From Alphaproteobacteria bacterium (GTDB taxonomy: Bacteria > Pseudomonadota > Alphaproteobacteria > RF32 > CAG-239), in contig JAFUXF010000035.1 of the NCBI GenBank assembly GCA_017477185.1, forward strand, positions 100,851-164,850: a DNA stretch of 64,000 nt, given 5' to 3'. Position numbers and translations under genes: made by a program. This document shows, piece by piece, positions 30,447-64,000 of this stretch. The first letter of the stretch is position 1. The number at the start of each line of letters is the position of its first letter. The notes under the pieces were generated by a model. It saw only the letters and a list, made by a program, of their open reading frames with translations, had not been told where the DNA came from and ran no database searches.

Positions 30447-31154
30447 ATGAAAAAAATGTTATTATTAGCCGGTATTGCTACCGTTGCTTTCTCCGTACAT
30501 GCTAATGCTTGTGATTGGAAACCATACATTTCCGCTAAATTGACGGCCTCTCAGCTATCTGTTAATACCTCTGGCAGATATGTTGGTGATGGCTTCATAG
30601 AGAAATCCCTTAACTCCGGTGATGAAACACAGCATGTTTGGGGAACAAGTTTTGCTGCCGGTGCTGCCAGTGGAGCAATCCGGACTGAAATTGAATGGCA
30701 TCGCAACACTGCTGCCAGAATGTCTGACACCAATTCTACTATTAACGCTATTCTAGGAAATACTGTTGAGACAGGTAAAGCCAAAATTAAAACGGATGCC
30801 TTGCTATTAAATGCATATTATGACTTTGAGACCGATTCTGCCTTTACTCCTTATGTTGGTGCCGGTATCGGATATGCAAAAACTAAAATTACTCAATCTC
30901 GTTATGTTTCATGGGCTTTAGAAGGATTTGATAAAGCCACAAACAGCCACACCAACTTTGCATGGCAAATTGGTGCCGGTATTGCTTATGCTTTGAATGA
31001 CCATGTTTCTATTGACGTTGGTTATCGCTATATTGATTACGGCAAATTCAACGTTAAGAACTATGTTGATGAAGGATGGAGAGACGGAATTCGCAGAACT
31101 TCTTATGAAGTTACCGAAAACGAATTATATGCCGGTATCAGATATTCTTTCTAA
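30447..31154 (+). CDS. Outer-membrane beta-barrel (opacity/porin-like) protein
   Basis: Signal peptide, NAYYDF, FTPYVGAGIG, FAWQIGAG, GIRYSF. Confidence 0.88.
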   Translation: MKKMLLLAGIATVAFSVHANACDWKPYISAKLTASQLSVNTSGRYVGDGFIEKSLNSGDETQHVWGTSFAAGAASGAIRTEIEWHRNTAARMSDTNSTINAILGNTVETGKAKIKTDALLLNAYYDFETDSAFTPYVGAGIGYAKTKITQSRYVSWALEGFDKATNSHTNFAWQIGAGIAYALNDHVSIDVGYRYIDYGKFNVKNYVDEGWRDGIRRTSYEVTENELYAGIRYSF

Positions 31155-58049: not shown

Positions 58050-60788
58050 ATGAGCAAAAAAGTTTGTTTAATTGATGGTTCCGGCTACATTTTCCGTGCC
58101 TTTTATGCCCTTCCGCCGATGAGTGCCCCCAATGGCACTCCGGTCAATGCCGTTTACGGCTTTACCAATATGTTCTTAAAACTCACCCAACGCCTGCAGT
58201 GCGACTACAGCCTTGTTTTATTTGACGCTAAACGGCAGAACTATCGTAATGACATCTTCCCTGATTACAAAGGCACACGCAAAGAAACGCCCGAAGAGCT
58301 GATTCCGCAATTTGCTGTTATCCGTGAGGCATTAGACGCCCTCAACATTCACTACCTCGACATGGAAGGCTATGAGGCTGACGACCTGATTGCCACTTAT
58401 ACGGAGCAAAGTCTGGGCAAGAATTATGACGTAACTGTGATTTCGGCTGATAAAGACCTCATGCAGCTCATCCGTCCGCACGTCGAGTTTTACGACCCGA
58501 TGAAAGACAAATTTTTCACCCCCGAAGATGTCAAAGAAAAGTTCGGGGTCTACCCCGACAAAGTCATTGATGTTCAAGCCCTTGCCGGTGACAGTATCGA
58601 TAATATCCCCGGTGTTCCCGGAATTGGTCTGAAAACGGCGGCAGAACTGGTCAATCAGTTCGGCTCTCTGGAAGAGGTTTTAGCCCGTGCCGCTGAAATC
58701 AAACAGAACAAACGCCGCGAAACGATTATGAATAACAGTGAACAGGCTCGTATTTCACTAAAACTTGTGACCCTAAAAAATGACGTTCCTATTAACCACG
58801 CCATCGAAGACTATCCTTGTCAAACTCCCGTAAAAAACAATGTGATGGAATTTGTTGATAAATACGCCTTTAACGGCATTCGCCCGCGTATCGAAAAATG
58901 GGTTGATGAGCAATGCCAAACCCACACAACACCGGCACAAATAAAGCAAAACTATACGCTTATCACTACCGAGGCAGACCTAAAAGCATTTTGCCGCCGC
59001 ATTGAACAAAGCGGTCGTTTTGCTTTTAATGTCGAGACAACCGGAATTAATCCTCAATTTAATAAAATCATCGGTTTTTCACTTTGTGATACAGCCGGAA
59101 ATGCCTGCTACGTCCCTGTTTGCACCACGCAAAACGCCCCCGCAAATCTAGATTTATTCGCCGCCGCAGCACCCAAAACCGAAGGTCTAACCCCACAAAC
59201 ACTCCGCCAATACCTTGCACCGCTTTTTAAGGCACAATCGATTCTCAAGATTAGTCATGATGCCAAATTCAACATCCACTTTATGAAACAAATCATGGGT
59301 GCGGAACAAACATTTACCCCGCTTGAAGATACGTCTGTTCTCTCTTATGTGTTAGACAGTTCAAACCACAAACATACAATTCCCGAACTGGCAGAACTCT
59401 TTTTGGATATTCAAACAACGCCTCTGGAGTCTCTCACCGGCACCGGTAAAAACAAAACTGACATTGCGGATTTACCACCTTCGATTCTCCTCGAATATGC
59501 CGCCCAAAAATCCGATATAACCATGCGCCTGTATGATCTTTTCCGCACCCGCTTGTATCAAGAAAAACAAATAAGTGTTTATGAAGACCTTGATCGCCCG
59601 CTTATACCTGTTTTGCAAAAAATGGAACAAGAAGGCATTATGGTTGACGCCCCGCAACTAAAAAAACTAAGCACCGAATTATCGCAAACCCTACAAACTT
59701 ACGAGCAAGAAATTTATAAAATTGCCGGTCGCGAATTTAATCTCGGCTCACCGAAACAAATCGGCGAAGTTCTGTTTGATGGAACCGGTATTAAGGGCAA
59801 AAAAACCTCTACCGGTGCATGGCAAACCGGTGCTGATGTGCTGGAAAACTTAGCCGAAGACGGCAATTTATTAGCATCCAAAATCTTAGAATGGCGCGCC
59901 TTTAGCAAGCTCAAATCGACTTATACGGATACCTTGCTTGAACAATTGGATAAGAACTCTCGTCTTCACACCACCTTCAGTCAAATAGCCGTTAATACCG
60001 GTCGTTTAGCCTCATCTAACCCGAACCTGCAAAACATTCCTATCCGCAGTCCCGAGGGGAAAAAAATTCGCTCATGTTTTATCGCCAAGCCGGAACATAA
60101 AATTATTTCCTGCGACTACTCTCAGGTTGAATTACGCCTGCTCGCTGTCGTCGCTGATGTTAAAGGCTTAAAGCAAGCTTTCTTAGACGGGCAGGATATT
60201 CACGCTGCCACCGCCGCAAAAGTGTTTAACGTCCCCTTATCTGAGGTTACACCGGATTTACGCCGTCATGCCAAAGCGATTAATTTTGGTATTGTTTACG
60301 GTATTTCCCAATTCGGCTTAGCGCGACAAATTGACGTCTCTCCGGCGGAAGCTAAAAATTATATCGATTCGTATTTTGAGAAAATGCCCGAGATTAAACA
60401 CTTTATGGATGAAACCATCGCTTTTGCCCACAAACATGGGTATGTCGTCACCCCGTTCGGGCGTAAATGTCCGGTTTTCGGGATTAATGACCCAAACAAG
60501 CGCCTCGTTCAAAATGCGGAACGTGCCGCTATTAATGCCCCGATTCAAGGCGGGGCGGCGGACATTATTAAAATGGCAATGCGTGTCGTTGATGAAAACC
60601 TGAGAGTAGAAAACTTCAAAACTAAAATGCTTTTGCAAGTCCACGATGAACTGATTTTTGAGGCGCCGCTTGATGAGATTGACGCTGTCAGCAAAATGAT
60701 TAAAGAGACCATGCAAAATGTCGTCGCTTATGATATTCCGTTCATTGCCGAACTCGGCATCGGCGATAATTGGACTGAGGCGCACTAA
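58050..60788 (+). CDS. polA: DNA polymerase I
   Basis: LIDGSGYIFRAFYA, GYEADD, DYSQVELR, KAINFGIVYG, LQVHDELIFE. Confidence 0.99.
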   Translation: MSKKVCLIDGSGYIFRAFYALPPMSAPNGTPVNAVYGFTNMFLKLTQRLQCDYSLVLFDAKRQNYRNDIFPDYKGTRKETPEELIPQFAVIREALDALNIHYLDMEGYEADDLIATYTEQSLGKNYDVTVISADKDLMQLIRPHVEFYDPMKDKFFTPEDVKEKFGVYPDKVIDVQALAGDSIDNIPGVPGIGLKTAAELVNQFGSLEEVLARAAEIKQNKRRETIMNNSEQARISLKLVTLKNDVPINHAIEDYPCQTPVKNNVMEFVDKYAFNGIRPRIEKWVDEQCQTHTTPAQIKQNYTLITTEADLKAFCRRIEQSGRFAFNVETTGINPQFNKIIGFSLCDTAGNACYVPVCTTQNAPANLDLFAAAAPKTEGLTPQTLRQYLAPLFKAQSILKISHDAKFNIHFMKQIMGAEQTFTPLEDTSVLSYVLDSSNHKHTIPELAELFLDIQTTPLESLTGTGKNKTDIADLPPSILLEYAAQKSDITMRLYDLFRTRLYQEKQISVYEDLDRPLIPVLQKMEQEGIMVDAPQLKKLSTELSQTLQTYEQEIYKIAGREFNLGSPKQIGEVLFDGTGIKGKKTSTGAWQTGADVLENLAEDGNLLASKILEWRAFSKLKSTYTDTLLEQLDKNSRLHTTFSQIAVNTGRLASSNPNLQNIPIRSPEGKKIRSCFIAKPEHKIISCDYSQVELRLLAVVADVKGLKQAFLDGQDIHAATAAKVFNVPLSEVTPDLRRHAKAINFGIVYGISQFGLARQIDVSPAEAKNYIDSYFEKMPEIKHFMDETIAFAHKHGYVVTPFGRKCPVFGINDPNKRLVQNAERAAINAPIQGGAADIIKMAMRVVDENLRVENFKTKMLLQVHDELIFEAPLDEIDAVSKMIKETMQNVVAYDIPFIAELGIGDNWTEAH

Positions 60789-60840: not shown

Positions 60841-60930
60841 TTCTTCCTCCCCTTTTTGTGCCCTTTTCTTCCTCCCCTTTTTGTGCCCTTTTCTTCCTCC
60901 CCTTTTTGTGCCCTTTTCTTCCTCCCCTTT
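60841..60930. repeat. Tandem repeat, 25-bp unit x3.6 (ttcttcctcccctttttgtgccctt)
   Basis: Exact copies start at 60841, 60866 and 60891, with a partial at 60916 that runs into a CTCCCCTT/AAGGGGAG palindrome. Confidence 0.95.
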
Positions 60931-60955
60931 GTAAGGGGAGGTTAGGAGGGGTTTA

Positions 60956-60982
60956 ATCATTACCGAGCTTGACTCGGTAATC
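60956..60982. repeat. REP-like palindrome
   Basis: attaccgag-cttga-ctcggtaat. Confidence 0.55.
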
Positions 60983-61311
60983 TACCTGAGTCTGTTCTCG
61001 CGCGCTAAAAGCGCTGTGAGAACAAAGGGGACAGTCGGCAAGGAGCAAAGCAGTCTTTGCGACTTGTCAATATTAAAGGTATCAAATTCCCTCAAAAACA
61101 TTAGAGAAAAATTTACCATTTCGGGTGTATAAATAACCTGTTTGTAGATGTGTATCAACTGTGAATTTTTTGTTACAGGAAAATTTATATTGATATTTCA
61201 ATCGGTTATCATGCTTTTGGACGATCAGATTTATCTGGAAAAAAACACCAAAATCGGTTATTCTAAAAGGGTAGATGATTTTAATTTATAACATAGATAA
61301 GGAGAAAGACT

Positions 61312-61686
61312 ATGAACTTCTTGAAAAAAAATATTTGGACAATCTGCTCATGGGCATTTGTCTTAACATTATTGGCTGCTGACTCTTTTGCTGCCGGTGA
61401 AGGTTCATCTTTAATGACCACCGCCCAAACAAAAGCAACCAATGTCTTCCAGTCAGTCAAAACCATCACATTTATTATCGGTGGTTTCGGTTTGATTGGT
61501 ATTGCTTACCAAGCAATTATCGGCAAAGTAAAATGGTCTTGGTTTGCAGGTCTGGCTGTTGGTTTGGCATTGCTCGCCGCTGCCGGTGCAATTGTTGAGT
61601 ACGCAACAGGTGCTTCTGGTTACTCTGGATCAGATTCAAAAACCGGTTTAGGCGATACATTCTCTACTGGTTCTACTTATAAATAA
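61312..61686 (+). CDS. VirB2/TrbC-like pilin 1
   Basis: AAGGAG RBS, signal peptide ending SFA, two hydrophobic helices around a basic loop: IIGGFGLIGIAYQAIIGKVKWSWFAGLAVGLALL. Confidence 0.75.
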   Translation: MNFLKKNIWTICSWAFVLTLLAADSFAAGEGSSLMTTAQTKATNVFQSVKTITFIIGGFGLIGIAYQAIIGKVKWSWFAGLAVGLALLAAAGAIVEYATGASGYSGSDSKTGLGDTFSTGSTYK

Positions 61687-61713
61687 ACCGCAAGAGAATA
61701 TCTGTTAACTAAA

Positions 61714-61779
61714 AAAAGGAAGGTGCAACATGAAAAATTTAGCTCTAAATCGCTCACGACACCTTCCTTTTGTTTTTTT
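61714..61779 (+). terminator. Terminator/attenuator-like hairpin between pilin genes
   Basis: 12-bp perfect stem aaaaggaaggtg/caccttcctttt followed by a T tract. Confidence 0.55.
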
Positions 61780-61798
61780 GAAACAAGGAAAAGAAGAA

Positions 61799-62149
61799 AT
61801 GCTGCACATAAATTTAAAGAAATTTTTGCTCGCCGCCGTCATGGTGTTGTTATGTTCTTCAATTTTATTTGTAGCAGATTCGCACGCCGAAGAGTTATTT
61901 GGCGATTTAGCCAAACATGGTGGTAAAATTTTTACCGGCATGCGTGAAATCATTTACGCCGTATCCGGTTTTGGTATTATTGCGATTGCAATAGGATCAA
62001 TTTTTGGACAAGTCAATTACAAATGGCTGACGGCTATTTTGATTGGTTTGTTCGTTATTGCAGCAACAGCGGCAATCATCAACTACATGGTTGATGACAA
62101 CGTTGTTACAACAGAAATGATTACTGACAGCCTTAAAAGCGGTCAGTAG
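61799..62149 (+). CDS. VirB2/TrbC-like pilin 2
   Basis: Signal peptide ending SHA, AVSGFGIIAIAIGSIFGQVNYKWLTAILIGLFVI; alternative start 61730 lies inside the hairpin. Confidence 0.75.
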   Translation: MLHINLKKFLLAAVMVLLCSSILFVADSHAEELFGDLAKHGGKIFTGMREIIYAVSGFGIIAIAIGSIFGQVNYKWLTAILIGLFVIAATAAIINYMVDDNVVTTEMITDSLKSGQ

Positions 62150-62164
62150 AAAATATACAGGATA

Positions 62165-62257
62165 GTCATTCCGAGCAAACGAAGCATAATTCGGGATTTA
62201 ATATTAAAGAAAACAGATTCCATAAATATTAGACTCCGGCTTGGTGGTCGAAGTGAT
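62165..62257. repeat. Degenerate GTCATT-tagged REP-like pair
   Basis: gtcattccgag...tcgggatt and actccggcttggtggtcgaagtgat. Confidence 0.4.
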
Positions 62258-62313
62258 AAAAGAGAAAAACAAAATAACAAGCTGCACAGCAGCAAGACTA
62301 AGGAGGATGTGCC

Positions 62314-64000
62314 ATGACGATGATGACTAAAGCAATGAAAGGTATTTCATTCCTGCTGTGCGTGGGCTTTTTAAGTGTTGCAACAACTGATGTTTGGGCA
62401 AAAAGTGCTGCTAAAATGTTAGCAGATTATGAAGCAAAACTTGCTGATACAGAGACTTATGGAACTTGTGAAAGTGCTAATACTATCATCAAAAATTACA
62501 AAAAAAACGGACGTGATTGTGCTAAAGAAACAACTGAAGAAAAAAGTGCACAATCTGCTTTAGATAATGTCTGTAATATGTATAAATCTATTAAAGCCGA
62601 ATACGAAAAATGTACTTCCGGAAAAATGGATAAATCTAAAGCCGCCGCTCAAGCACTGGCTACAGCTCAAAAAACTTTATCTAAATGTTTAAGCTACCAA
62701 GAAAAGCTGTTAAATGAGATAGAAACGGAGTTAAGTGACTGTAAAAAAGCTAAAAAAGCGCAGGAACAAGCCAATAAAGCGGATGAAAAAGCCGATAAAG
62801 CAGCGGCTGAGAATGATAAAGCTCAAGAAGCTCTGGAAAAAGCCGAGGCTGAATATAATCAAGCTACTGCTGCTTGTGAAAATGGAGATCAAAATGCCTG
62901 TAATTCTATGAAAAGTCTGTATAAAGCTTACGAGAAAGCCGCTAAAAAAGCTGGCAAAACCGCAAAAGCAGAAAAAGAGGCTTTTGATAATGCAGAAAAC
63001 AAAAATCAAGCAGCGCAAAATGCCGCTGCTTCGACATGTGCGGCCAATACCGTCTGGAATCCCTTTTTACAAGCTTGTGCTTGGTTCTCAGATACTAAAT
63101 CAGAAAGTGAGGATAAGCAACTTCTGAAGTCTCTTAAGGAATGTCTTGGATCCGATACAAGCAGGAAAACTATAGAAGCTTGCCTTGCTAAAAAGAAGGA
63201 AGAAGATAAACAGACAAAAGAATTAATAGATGATTTAATATGTGACGGCAAAGGTATTTATGATGATACGACAGATACTTGCCGTCCATATACAGAAGAA
63301 GAAGCAGCAGCTAAGAAAAAAGCTGAAGAAGCTAAAAAAGCAGCCGAAGACGCAGCCAAGGAAAAAGAAGAGGCAGAAAAAGCCTATAGTGATTGTGTCA
63401 AAGAAAAAGGTGCTGAAGCTTGTTTAGAAGAAGCAAATCGATTGTCGGATGCTACTTATAATCTAGGAAAATTGGCTCCCCAAACAGATCCCGAAGGAAA
63501 TGGCAGCGACAACTCAGGTGCGACTAATGCTGAAATCCAAAAAATGGTAGATGCCGCAACCAAACCAAGATGCTCCGGCGTCAGCAAAACTGGTGAAGCC
63601 CACGGAACATTCGGTATTTTCGATTATCTCGCTTGTAAAATTACCACCGTTGTTGCTGATTTGCGGGTTATTGTCTACATCTTAGCCGGATTCGGTATGA
63701 TTGCCTTTGCTTATTCCGCAATTATCGGTAAGATTAACTTCAAGCAGCTTGCCAATATTGGCATTGGTCTGTTCATTCTCTCGATGACAACCGGTATTAT
63801 TGAAGAGATTGTTTTTAATGACGGCACTTCACATCTGCAGTATGGAGACTTTTTACCCAACGGCAACCATGAACAATACTTCCAAACAAGCACGAATTGC
63901 AGTACTAATCGAAAGCTTTGTCCGGATGTTAACATTACAGCTGATGGCGCAGACGCCGCTGGTAAAAAATGGAGTATTAAAGACCTGAAAAGCACCATCC
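62314..64000 (+). CDS. Large secreted Cys-rich/coiled-coil protein with an internal VirB2-like pilin hairpin; 3'-truncated by the window edge (>562 aa)
   Basis: Manual translation: AGGAGG RBS, ATG 62314, no in-frame stop to 64000; signal peptide ending VWA; pilin-like segment at about 63619-63816. Confidence 0.85.
   Translation, partial: MTMMTKAMKGISFLLCVGFLSVATTDVWAKSAAKMLADYEAKLADTETYGTCESANTIIKNYKKNGRDCAKETTEEKSAQSALDNVCNMYKSIKAEYEKCTSGKMDKSKAAAQALATAQKTLSKCLSYQEKLLNEIETELSDCKKAKKAQEQANKADEKADKAAAENDKAQEALEKAEAEYNQATAACENGDQNACNSMKSLYKAYEKAAKKAGKTAKAEKEAFDNAENKNQAAQNAAASTCAANTVWNPFLQACAWFSDTKSESEDKQLLKSLKECLGSDTSRKTIEACLAKKKEEDKQTKELIDDLICDGKGIYDDTTDTCRPYTEEEAAAKKKAEEAKKAAEDAAKEKEEAEKAYSDCVKEKGAEACLEEANRLSDATYNLGKLAPQTDPEGNGSDNSGATNAEIQKMVDAATKPRCSGVSKTGEAHGTFGIFDYLACKITTVVADLRVIVYILAGFGMIAFAYSAIIGKINFKQLANIGIGLFILSMTTGIIEEIVFNDGTSHLQYGDFLPNGNHEQYFQTSTNCSTNRKLCPDVNITADGADAAGKKWSIKDLKSTI

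What the first reader, a model, noticed from the sequence alone, without database searches (positions are those of the whole stretch)
61312..64000. Chromosomal tandem of three divergent VirB2/TrbC-like pilin units with no T4SS machinery or mobile element in view
Seen: all three share [LMV][RK].I[VIT][YF]...GFG[MIL]I..A...I[IF]G[KQ][IV].[FYW] followed by a GL-containing helix, but differ elsewhere; they follow polA with no integrase or relaxase. Known: VirB2/TrbC pilins have this two-helix layout, and Anaplasmataceae carry expanded virB2 paralogs as variable surface proteins. Inference: a host-adapted, non-conjugative pilus or adhesin locus with a major pilin, a minor pilin and a giant decorated pilin, likely continuing past the window.
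Basis: partly seen in the sequence, partly recalled or inferred. Interest (0 to 1): 0.75.

Follow-up and report, generated by a model that had tools for sequence, protein, structure and literature searches.

The report
Detached three-gene VirB2 pilin cassette
Three neighbouring genes in an uncultured gut alphaproteobacterium all encode versions of the pilus subunit of a type IV secretion system; the third version sits inside a 1143-residue cysteine-rich protein, and in most related species the same three genes lead a complete secretion-system operon, whereas here they sit alone among housekeeping genes.

Summary
Three + strand genes follow polA: P1 (61312-61686), P2 (61730-62149) and P3 (62314 onward, 1143 aa in full). 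Each contains one VirB2/TrbC pilin module. P1 passes Pfam PF04956. P2 misses the cut-off by 0.6 bit. P3 fails directly but is linked by profile-profile comparison (98.7% probability) and by an ortholog that passes.

The locus does not continue: P3 ends at a strong terminator and housekeeping genes follow. It is also not a stand-alone invention. In 67 of 75 assessable related loci, all from gut and rumen alphaproteobacterial MAGs, the same cassette is followed directly by virB3-virB4. In the six loci read further, VirB8 follows, and in four of them a putative VirB7 lipoprotein, a second VirB8 and VirB9.

In the window's subclade the cassette has moved away from that operon, yet it stays under purifying selection (dN/dS 0.08-0.33). 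I could not establish whether this genome keeps the machinery elsewhere.

The P3 type (222-2058 aa, unnamed, undescribed as far as I could find) looks like a pilin carrying hypervariable outward-facing domains. It is the novel part.

The parts
61301..61305 (+). Shine-Dalgarno-like AGGAG, 6 nt before the P1 start codon
   Evidence: Read directly from the sequence.
61312..61686 (+). P1, type-A small pilin (124 aa). It has a 27-aa signal peptide (...ADSFA|AGEG), two hydrophobic helices and a Gly/Ser-rich tail. It is the probable major pilin.
   Evidence: PF04956 42.5 bits against a cut-off of 27.9. 663 homologs, all carrying PF04956; NCBI names them 'TrbC/VirB2 family protein'. AF2 model: helices 8-29, 34-69 and 75-99, pLDDT 70-79 in the hairpin. 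dN/dS 0.08-0.13.
61456..61536 (+). P1 pilin-core motif VKTITFIIGGFGLIGIAYQAIIGKVKW: the end of helix 1 plus the basic loop.
   Evidence: Regex hit. Invariant columns G58, F59, G60.
61730..62149 (+). P2, type-B small pilin (139 aa). It has a long leader of about 53 aa (...ADSHA|EELF) that is conserved in orthologs.
   Evidence: PF04956 27.3 bits, just under the cut-off; its ortholog in L091 passes at 28.5 bits. The ortholog group is aligned. dN/dS 0.17-0.26.
61940..62020 (+). P2 pilin-core motif MREIIYAVSGFGIIAIAIGSIFGQVNY.
   Evidence: Regex hit.
62300..62306 (+). Shine-Dalgarno AAGGAGG, 7 nt before the P3 start codon.
   Evidence: Read directly from the sequence.
62314..64000 (+). P3, type-C giant pilin-module protein. 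The window holds residues 1-562 of 1143; the gene ends 1743 nt beyond the window.
   Evidence: Translation. About 60 homologs by word search, all unnamed and without Pfam domains. 626 representatives at 50% clustering by exhaustive HMM search.
62314..62400 (+). P3 signal peptide (residues 1-29, ...TDVWA|KSAA).
   Evidence: Hydrophobic segment 11-29; conserved in orthologs.
62401..63615 (+). P3 N-terminal ectodomain (residues 30-434): Ala/Lys/Glu-rich helical region with 17 cysteines, mostly in closely spaced pairs. Variable between species and absent from some orthologs.
   Evidence: Cysteine positions. pN 0.40-0.43. In the 530-aa L091 ortholog the signal peptide is followed directly by the pilin module.
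63616..63858 (+). P3 VirB2-like pilin module (residues 435-515): pre-helix, TM helix 1, the loop GKINFKQ and TM helix 2.
Evidence: hhalign 98.75% to the P1 family; HMM link. pN 0.10-0.15 against 0.37-0.47 in the ectodomains.
63859..64000 (+). Start of the P3 conserved post-hairpin region (residues 516-800 in full). It is predicted all-helical and is followed, outside the window, by a Thr-rich and Cys-rich variable C-terminal ectodomain (residues 801-1143).
   Evidence: The family-wide conserved core is residues ~420-780. AF2 secondary structure only, pLDDT 49.6.

Best explanation
The three genes are a pilin cassette: three anciently diverged paralogs (types A, B and C) of the VirB2/TrbC pilin of a VirB-type type IV secretion system. 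That system is a chromosomal feature across a clade of uncultured gut and rumen Alphaproteobacteria.

In the ancestral layout, kept by most species, the cassette is followed directly by virB3 and virB4, a VirB5-like gene and several unknown exported proteins. Where the operon was read further, VirB8, a putative VirB7 lipoprotein, a second VirB8 and VirB9 follow. The operon sits head-to-head with a T2SSE/PilO/secretin/TcpQ cluster. In the window's subclade the cassette was moved away from that operon. Here it lies between polA and a methyltransferase-like gene/holA/lptE/leuS, ends at its own terminator, and is still kept by selection.

Proposed working (inferred):
- All three products are exported by Sec and sit in the inner membrane as hairpins, with both ends in the periplasm and the lysine-bearing loop in the cytoplasm.
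- P1 is the bulk pilus subunit and P2 a second, minor subunit.
- P3 enters or caps the same filament through its conserved pilin module.
- VirB2 termini lie on the outside of the filament, so P3 would display about 400 residues of N-terminal and about 630 residues of C-terminal sequence, rich in putatively disulfide-paired cysteines and variable between species, on the pilus surface as an adhesin or specificity determinant.

Shown: homology, ortholog groups, synteny, selection, hydrophobicity and cysteine pattern. Inferred: incorporation into a pilus, adhesive role, and presence of the machinery elsewhere in this genome.
For: Homology:
- PF04956 for P1.
- hhalign 98.75% between the P1 family and the P3 core.
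- In L091 all three cassette members pass PF04956 (47.9, 28.5 and 35.8 bits).
- Window P3 aligns to the L091 third pilin at E = 1e-20.

Three ortholog groups are conserved across genomes.

Synteny:
- 80 GTDB loci plus others were analysed. 67 of 75 assessable loci have the cassette directly followed by virB3 (96 aa) and virB4 (about 810 aa). 8 are detached, including the window and its nearest relatives.
- virB4 is confirmed by TIGR00929 at 372 bits (below that model's curated cut-off of 643) and by PF03135 above its cut-off.
- VirB8 (PF04335) lies downstream in the loci read from virB4; a second VirB8, a 62-aa gene and VirB9/CagX (PF03524) appear in L091-L094 and L101-L104. The 62-aa product read in L091 has an LSGC lipobox.

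Selection within the detached clade: dN/dS is 0.08-0.13 for P1, 0.17-0.26 for P2 and 0.19-0.33 for P3. The P3 hairpin has pN 0.10-0.15 against 0.37-0.47 in its ectodomains.

Topology:
- Signal peptide plus exactly two TM segments in nearly all P3-type proteins.
- Lysines in the inter-helix loop are invariant.
- 38 cysteines after the signal peptide, mostly in closely spaced pairs.
- In the T-pilus structure the VirB2 termini are on the outward side and a positively charged luminal loop is a conserved feature (bioRxiv 10.1101/2022.09.25.509369).

Operon boundaries: ribosome-binding sites and a 15-bp-stem terminator right after the P3 stop codon.

Variability fits surface exposure: the third pilin ranges from 222 to 2058 aa; identical VirB4 proteins sit next to giants of 1423, 1430 and 1438 aa in different samples; one long-read genome has an invertible C-terminal cassette.
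Against: - No T4SS machinery was found in the 64-kb window or the 8 kb beyond it, and I could not show that this genome has it elsewhere. Three look-ups of candidate VirB4 proteins all landed in attached lineages, and the JGI scan failed.
- P3 itself does not reach significance with PF04956 (8.1 bits), and only 4 of 26 P3-type cores reach E < 0.01.
- The structure prediction of the P3 core was unusable (pLDDT 49.6).
- The P1 model gave no significant Foldseek match to solved pilins, and no PDB pilin was found by profile.
- A 1143-aa subunit cannot tile a VirB2 lattice at full occupancy, so its place in a filament (tip, base or sparse) is conjecture.
- dS is saturated, so the dN/dS values are rough.
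Confidence: 0.7

Rival explanations
1. Orphan cassette. The window's lineage has lost the T4SS, and the three membrane proteins survive because they were co-opted for a T4SS-independent role, such as envelope or surface proteins anchored by the hairpin.
For: No machinery in about 72 kb around the genes. The nearest relatives are also detached, mostly next to a porin and a response regulator. The type-A pilin is missing beside B and the giant in L012 and L013, which shows that the module can erode.
Against: Purifying selection is strongest on exactly the pilin-module residues that matter for filament packing: the GFG motif, the basic loop and the two helices. T4SS genes split over several loci are common in Alphaproteobacteria such as Anaplasma (PMC3556328). 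VirB4 is extremely conserved and widespread in the clade (1003 proteins, 83-92% identity among the 120 listed).
Confidence: 0.15
2. P3 is not a filament subunit. It is an inner-membrane-anchored periplasmic component of the machine, for example a pilus-base or assembly platform, or a stalk- or VirB6-like adaptor. It would use the pilin-like hairpin to dock pilins, and its helical post-hairpin domain would work inside the periplasm.
For: A conserved helical domain of about 270 residues follows the hairpin across the family. Its position is immediately before virB3-virB4. The size makes lattice incorporation sterically difficult.
Against: The parts outside the core are hypervariable in length and sequence (222-2058 aa; pN 0.37-0.47), vary between strains that share an identical VirB4, and carry an invertible C-terminal cassette in one genome. 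That pattern is typical of exposed, host- or target-facing parts rather than of internal machine parts. VirB5-like and VirB6-like candidates exist separately.
Confidence: 0.2
3. The genes are the start, or a fragment, of an ordinary conjugative element (ICE or plasmid remnant).
For: VirB2-VirB3-VirB4 order in relatives. A type IVb-pilus-like cluster (PilO/secretin/TcpQ/ATPase) lies next to the T4SS, as on IncI plasmids and some ICEs (my recollection). High VirB4 identity across species could also reflect horizontal spread.
Against: In the window both flanks are housekeeping genes (polA; holA-lptE-leuS), with no integrase, relaxase, coupling protein or tRNA junction. GC is 0.40-0.42 in the region against 0.30-0.45 across the window. 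In relatives no relaxase or coupling protein appeared within 10 kb either side. One XerC/D-like integrase lies about 3.2 kb upstream of the cassette in L008. The cluster is present in more than 80 species of one clade with the same layout.
Confidence: 0.08

Closest known systems
VirB2/TrbC pilins of P-type T4SSs (Pfam PF04956; e.g. Agrobacterium VirB2, RP4 TrbC)
   Same: Profile match (P1 over the cut-off, P2 at the cut-off, P3 orthologs over it). Leader peptide, two hydrophobic helices, and a short loop with conserved positive charge. In relatives the genes sit immediately upstream of virB3-virB4.
   Different: There are three fixed, anciently diverged paralog types rather than one gene. The third has its pilin module embedded between, or followed by, hundreds to about 2000 residues. 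In this genome the genes are detached from the machinery. No sequence-level or Foldseek match to any solved pilin was obtained.
Bartonella Trw T4SS with tandem trwL (VirB2) and trwJ (VirB5) copies (PMC2883598)
   Same: A chromosomal T4SS of an alphaproteobacterium living with animals. It has several tandem VirB2 paralogs, and its surface components diversify much faster than the rest of the machine. The proposed role is variant pili for host-specific adhesion.
   Different: The trwL copies are small and arose by recent amplification (5-8 copies, variable number). Here there are three stable ortholog groups, one of them fused to giant ectodomains. The Trw locus is contiguous and known to lack the coupling protein; here coupling-protein status is unknown and the cassette is separated.
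Rickettsiales vir homolog (rvh) T4SS of Anaplasmataceae: split vir loci, 8-15 virB2 paralogs, giant repetitive VirB6 (PMC3556328)
   Same: vir genes are split over several chromosomal loci. There are multiple virB2 paralogs and a duplicated virB8 (two PF04335 genes in relatives). One very large, hypervariable, presumably exposed component is present.
   Different: The giant component here is built on a VirB2 module, not on VirB6. The organisms are gut-lumen commensals with genomes of about 1.9 Mb (one 1.85-Mb contig), not obligate intracellular bacteria. In Anaplasma the virB2 array sits next to virB4-2.
Inversion-based switching of pilus adhesin C-termini, e.g. the R64 shufflon acting on PilV (my recollection, not checked here)
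   Same: In relative L007 a perfect 1067-nt inverted repeat pairs the giant pilin gene with a partial inverted copy, so inversion would swap its C-terminal end.
   Different: Seen in one long-read genome only, not in the window. No recombinase was identified next to it. It acts on a T4SS pilin-module protein rather than on a type IV pilus adhesin.

Membership tests
TrbC/VirB2 pilin family (PF04956) | Profile match at or above the Pfam gathering score (27.9 bits) | tested here: met
   P1 scores 42.5 bits over profile positions 6-97 of 98. All 120 listed P1 homologs carry PF04956. This row applies to P1 only.
TrbC/VirB2 pilin family (PF04956) | Same profile test for P2 | tested here: inconclusive
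   P2 scores 27.3 bits, 0.6 below the cut-off. Its L091 ortholog scores 28.5 bits, above it. The P3-hairpin HMM scores 66.9 bits on P2.
TrbC/VirB2 pilin family (PF04956) | Same profile test for P3 | tested here: not met
   P3 scores 8.1 bits, E = 4.1. Only 4 of 26 family cores reach E < 0.01. Homology is nevertheless supported indirectly: hhalign to the P1 family gives 98.75%, E = 1.5e-16, and the 530-aa ortholog passes at 35.8 bits and aligns to P3 at 1e-20.
TrbC/VirB2 pilin family (PF04956) | Cleavable leader, then two hydrophobic helices joined by a short loop with conserved positive charge | tested here: met
   Hydropathy and alignments. P1 model helices 34-69 and 75-99. Loop lysines are invariant. 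The feature is described (T-pilus structure preprint).
TrbC/VirB2 pilin family (PF04956) | Fold match to a solved T4SS pilin | tested here: inconclusive
   Foldseek of the P1 model against the PDB gave no hit with E < 1. A helical hairpin of this size is too simple for a significant score. The P3 core model was too poor to use.
TrbC/VirB2 pilin family (PF04956) | Encoded with the T4SS machinery (virB3/virB4 next to it) | tested here: not met
   Not met in the window: there is none within about 72 kb. Met in 67 of 75 assessable related loci.
TrbC/VirB2 pilin family (PF04956) | Polymerises into an extracellular pilus | not testable with these tools
   Needs microscopy or proteomics on a cultured or enriched organism.
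Amplified-VirB2 adhesion T4SS (Bartonella Trw type) | Several tandem virB2 paralogs that diversify faster than the machine | tested here: met
   Three paralogs are present. VirB4 is 83-92% identical among the 120 listed clade proteins, whereas P3-type cores are 25-77% identical to the window's. Ectodomain pN is 0.37-0.47.
Amplified-VirB2 adhesion T4SS (Bartonella Trw type) | Absence of the coupling protein (VirD4/TrwB) | not tested
   The far end of the operon in relatives lay beyond the 10-kb flanks.
Conjugative element (ICE or plasmid) | Integrase/relaxase/coupling protein and an insertion junction at the locus | tested here: not met
   No such Pfam families appear among the called genes of the window and its downstream 8 kb. 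The three tRNA genes lie 17 kb or more away.
Type IV (T4P/Flp) pilins | Class III leader with G|F/M...E, or the Flp G|xxxxEY motif, cut by a prepilin peptidase | tested here: not met
   No such motif at the N-termini of P1-P3. No Pfam hit to T4P or Flp families, only TrbC.

The most novel reading that the evidence does not exclude
P3-type proteins would be a previously undescribed class of 'decorated' T4SS pilins. A conserved VirB2 module would insert into the pilus lattice and carry up to about 2000 residues of cysteine-rich, strain-variable sequence on the filament surface or tip; in at least one genome the C-terminal end is invertible. This would give abundant gut commensal Alphaproteobacteria a programmable T4SS-pilus adhesin. 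The window would show that this pilin module can be uncoupled from the machine's operon and regulated on its own.
Probability: 0.3. Interest if true: 0.8.

Novelty: new variant of a known kind. Interest (0 to 1): 0.6.

Why it matters
T4SS pili are thought to be built from one small VirB2 subunit plus a VirB5 tip. A widespread family of pilin-module proteins carrying huge variable ectodomains would add a new way of giving such pili binding specificity. The exhaustive search found 626 representative clusters, and more than 80 GTDB species carry the cassette.

The family occurs in a poorly known but common clade of human and ruminant gut bacteria that nobody has cultured. One VirB4 of this system is listed in 328 blocks of the assembly collection. 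The system is therefore a concrete lead to how these organisms attach to hosts, food particles or other microbes.

The detached cassette in this window is also a natural experiment on whether pilin supply can be separated from the machine.

Tried and rejected
1. AlphaFold2 of the P3 core (residues ~416-802, 26-sequence alignment) gave pLDDT 49.6. Only the secondary structure was usable and no fold search was run on it.

2. AlphaFold2 of P1 (45 sequences) gave pLDDT 66.6. Foldseek against the PDB found nothing below E = 3.9.

3. Profile searches against PDB sequences:
- With the P1 family: no pilin hit.
- With the P3 core and two operon proteins: only coiled-coil-type noise (coronavirus HR1, chemoreceptors, phage tail needle). 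There was one weak hit of the post-VirB4 protein to pKM101 TraC/VirB5, E = 0.026.

4. Hunt for the window organism's own VirB4. A VirB4 search returned 1003 near-identical proteins. Three context look-ups (P0189, P0147, P0081) all fell in lineages where the cassette is attached. Accession numbers of window proteins are masked. The question remains unresolved.

5. An inversion system at the window locus was looked for and is absent. It is present only in L007.

6. Pfam and NCBIfam on full-length P3 found no domain in the ectodomains.

7. Type IV/Flp pilin and ICE readings were rejected (see the membership table).

8. Rfam over the window found only three tRNAs.

9. Literature searches for RF32 with type IV secretion, and for VirB2-like proteins with a C-terminal extension, returned no paper holding all the terms.
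Full report
WHAT IS THERE

After polA (58050-60788) the + strand carries three ORFs. P1 is 61312-61686 (124 aa). P2 is 61730-62149 (139 aa). P3 starts at 62314 and runs off the window. P1 and P3 have good ribosome-binding sites. The public contig that holds the identical sequence (ENA ERZ28654170 scaffold_61, 245.5 kb) shows that P3 is 1143 aa.

ARE THEY VirB2/TrbC?

P1 matches Pfam PF04956 at 42.5 bits (cut-off 27.9) over almost the whole model. P2 reaches 27.3 bits. P3 reaches only 8.1 bits. NCBIfam adds nothing.

P3 is linked by other routes:
- An HMM built only from the hairpin regions of 60 P3-type proteins scores 54-68 bits on the small pilins.
- hhalign of a 45-sequence P1-family alignment against a 26-sequence P3-core alignment gives 98.75% probability, E = 1.5e-16, over 76 columns.
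- A 530-aa ortholog in another genome (L091) passes PF04956 at 35.8 bits and aligns to window P3 residues 435-660 at E = 1e-20. In that genome all three cassette members pass the Pfam cut-off.

A 12-sequence alignment of the three gene types from four genomes shows three distinct ortholog groups. They share a pre-helix, helix 1 with the invariant GFG, a lysine-bearing loop and helix 2.

P1 has 663 detectable homologs. All 120 listed carry PF04956, and those that NCBI names are called 'TrbC/VirB2 family protein [Alphaproteobacteria bacterium]'.

The AlphaFold2 model of P1 is of moderate confidence (pLDDT 66.6, 70-79 in the hairpin). It shows a signal helix, a 36-residue helix and a 25-residue helix, then a disordered tail. 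Foldseek and PDB-sequence searches gave no significant pilin match, which is inconclusive for such a small helical hairpin.

ANATOMY OF P3

- Signal peptide: residues 1-29.
- N-terminal region, 30-434: Ala/Lys/Glu-rich, with 17 cysteines mostly in close pairs.
- Pilin module, 435-515: two hydrophobic helices around GKINFKQ.
- Conserved, predicted all-helical region, 516-800.
- C-terminal region, 801-1143: Thr-rich and Cys-rich.
- In all, 38 cysteines follow the signal peptide, mostly at spacings of 5-21 residues.

Across about 60 homologs the conserved core is residues ~420-780. The N- and C-terminal parts vary. No Pfam domain is found in the extensions.

The exhaustive HMM search of 1.84 billion representatives found 626 proteins at E <= 0.001 and 158 at E <= 1e-30. 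Their lengths run from about 140 to 2138 aa. The pilin module lies anywhere from directly behind the signal peptide to about 850 residues into the protein. None has a name, and no paper turned up.

SURROUNDINGS IN THE WINDOW

Everything else is housekeeping: groESL, htpG, typA, dnaE, the mur/fts cell-division cluster, ackA/pta, nusG/secE, PBP1a and polA upstream. Downstream of P3 come a strong bidirectional terminator, a methyltransferase-like gene, DUF378, holA, lptE and leuS.

There is no T4SS machinery, integrase, relaxase or coupling protein, and the nearest tRNA gene is 17 kb away. The locus consists of these three genes only. It does not continue.

RELATIVES

A scan of one genome per GTDB species with the P3 core found 101 relatives. 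The 80 loci kept come overwhelmingly from gut or rumen MAGs labelled Alphaproteobacteria, Azospirillaceae, Rhodospirillales or 'Proteobacteria bacterium CAG:495'; two carry Lactobacillus or Lachnospiraceae labels. Hosts include Hadza, Nepali and other humans, ruminants and rabbits. The best match is only 53% identical, so the window's species is not among the representatives.

I called ORFs in all loci and labelled them with reference proteins. The canonical layout is:
- On one strand: T2SSE ATPase, unknown, PilO, secretin, TcpQ, unknown.
- Diverging from it: pilin A, pilin B, pilin C (222-2058 aa, median 972), a 96-aa VirB3-like protein, and VirB4 (about 810 aa). VirB4 scores 372 bits on TIGR00929, below that model's curated cut-off of 643, and passes PF03135.
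- Then a coiled-coil protein with an N-terminal AQxPTxD motif and a weak match to TraC/VirB5.
- Then several exported proteins of unknown family.

Where the flank reached further (L091-L094 and L101-L104), VirB8, a 62-aa gene whose L091 product has an LSGC lipobox (VirB7-like), a second VirB8 and VirB9/CagX follow. L095-L099 reach the first VirB8. A 714-aa protein with eight hydrophobic segments and a weak TrbL/VirB6 hit lies upstream in some genomes. This is a genuine, if divergent, VirB-type T4SS.

Of 75 assessable loci, 67 have the cassette directly attached to virB3-virB4 and 8 do not.

THE DETACHED STATE

The 8 detached loci include the window and its nearest relatives by P3 similarity (L011 Hadza, L013, L016). 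L012 and L100 have the same neighbourhood.

In those relatives the cassette lies next to a porin and a response regulator. In the window it lies after polA, so further rearrangement occurred. In L012 and L013 the type-A pilin is not beside B and C.

Within this clade the genes are under purifying selection:
- P1: dN/dS 0.08-0.13.
- P2: 0.17-0.26.
- P3: 0.19-0.33 overall, with the pilin module at pN 0.10-0.15 and the extensions at pN 0.37-0.47.
- dS is saturated, so these values are approximate.

I could not determine whether the window's genome has the machinery elsewhere. VirB4 of this system is so conserved (1003 proteins; the 120 listed are 83-92% identical) that I could not pick out the one from this organism. 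Three look-ups hit attached lineages, and the one metagenome scan failed. A type IV prepilin peptidase gene in the window (8031-8711) hints that some pilus system is retained, but it is not specific.

HOW IT PROBABLY WORKS

Shown:
- Three VirB2-family paralogs.
- The operon position in relatives.
- A topology signature of signal peptide, two TM helices and a basic loop.
- Cysteine-rich extensions on both sides of the module.
- Strong constraint on the module and fast change in the extensions.

From the literature: in the T-pilus both VirB2 termini lie on the outward face of the filament, and the basic loop faces the lumen (10.1101/2022.09.25.509369).

Inferred: P1 is the bulk subunit and P2 a second subunit. 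P3 enters or caps the filament through its module and displays about 1000 residues outside, as an adhesin or specificity determinant.

Supporting hints:
- The third pilin varies from 222 to 2058 aa between species.
- It differs in length between samples that share an identical VirB4.
- In one long-read genome (L007) a perfect 1067-nt inverted repeat pairs the gene with a partial inverted copy, so inversion would exchange its C-terminal end.

Rivals: an orphan cassette after loss of the machine; P3 as an internal, membrane-anchored machine part; a conjugative-element fragment. These are weighed in the rival explanations section.

COMPARISON WITH KNOWN SYSTEMS

P1 is an ordinary member of PF04956. 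The arrangement resembles two known systems:
- The Bartonella Trw system, with tandem trwL copies, fast-evolving surface parts and an adhesion role (PMC2883598).
- The Rickettsiales rvh system, with split loci, many virB2 paralogs, duplicated virB8 and a giant variable VirB6 (PMC3556328).

It differs from both. It has three stable paralog types, and its giant variable component is built on the pilin module itself. I found no description of such proteins. This rests on two literature searches and on the absence of names and Pfam domains in the databases, not on an exhaustive review.

VERDICT

- The small pilins are known and already annotated.
- The detached state is a lineage-specific rearrangement.
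- The P3-type giant pilin-module family is a new variant of a known kind and is worth following up.

Noticed in passing
window 60841-60930: A perfect 25-nt tandem repeat (TTCTTCCTCCCCTTTTTGTGCCCTT, 3.6 copies) lies in the polA-P1 intergenic region, about 380 nt upstream of P1. Three other assemblies of the same organism carry one unit fewer; L001, compared directly, is otherwise 100% identical to the window over the shared 12.7 kb, and L002 and L003 are 99.95-99.96% identical to L001. This is a copy-number polymorphism next to the pilin operon.
   Followed up: partly
window 60926-61035: A string of short hairpins lies after the repeat: CCCCTTTGTAAGGGG, ATTACCGAG-CTTGA-CTCGGTAAT and TGTTCTC...GAGAACA. 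They could be the polA terminator and/or remains of the rearrangement that placed the cassette here.
   Followed up: no
L007 11392-12458 and 13436-14502: A 1067-nt, 100% complementary inverted repeat pairs the giant pilin gene with a 505-aa minus-strand partial copy, with 977 nt between the arms. Inversion would swap the C-terminal end of the protein. It was seen only in this 1.85-Mb long-read contig.
   Followed up: partly
window 8031-8711 (-): A type IV prepilin peptidase gene (PF01478, 66.7 bits) sits among housekeeping genes. In relatives a T2SSE/PilO/secretin/TcpQ cluster lies head-to-head with the pilin-T4SS operon.
   Followed up: no
L095-L098 (relatives): One and the same VirB4 protein (P0147, identical sequence) sits next to third pilins of 1423, 1430 and 1438 aa in different samples. 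This is strain-level length variation of the giant.
   Followed up: no
L012 8400-9176; L013 7300-8333: In two detached relatives the type-A small pilin is missing next to the B and giant genes. L013 has a repetitive stretch there instead.
   Followed up: no
L002 6764-9502: In one sample's assembly polA is called as two ORFs (161 + 686 aa) instead of 912 aa. The locus differs from L001 by only 8 substitutions in 20 kb, so this is a possible nonsense variant or an assembly error.
   Followed up: no
window 30447-31154 (+): A small outer-membrane beta-barrel protein has a hit to Surface_Ag_2 (PF01617), a family I recall as typical of Anaplasmataceae surface antigens.
   Followed up: no
L091 19376-21241; L101 19899-21723: The T4SS of the relatives has two VirB8 paralogs separated by a 62-aa gene; the product read in L091 has an LSGC lipobox (putative VirB7). 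A 1235-1417-aa exported protein without any family match lies just upstream.
   Followed up: partly
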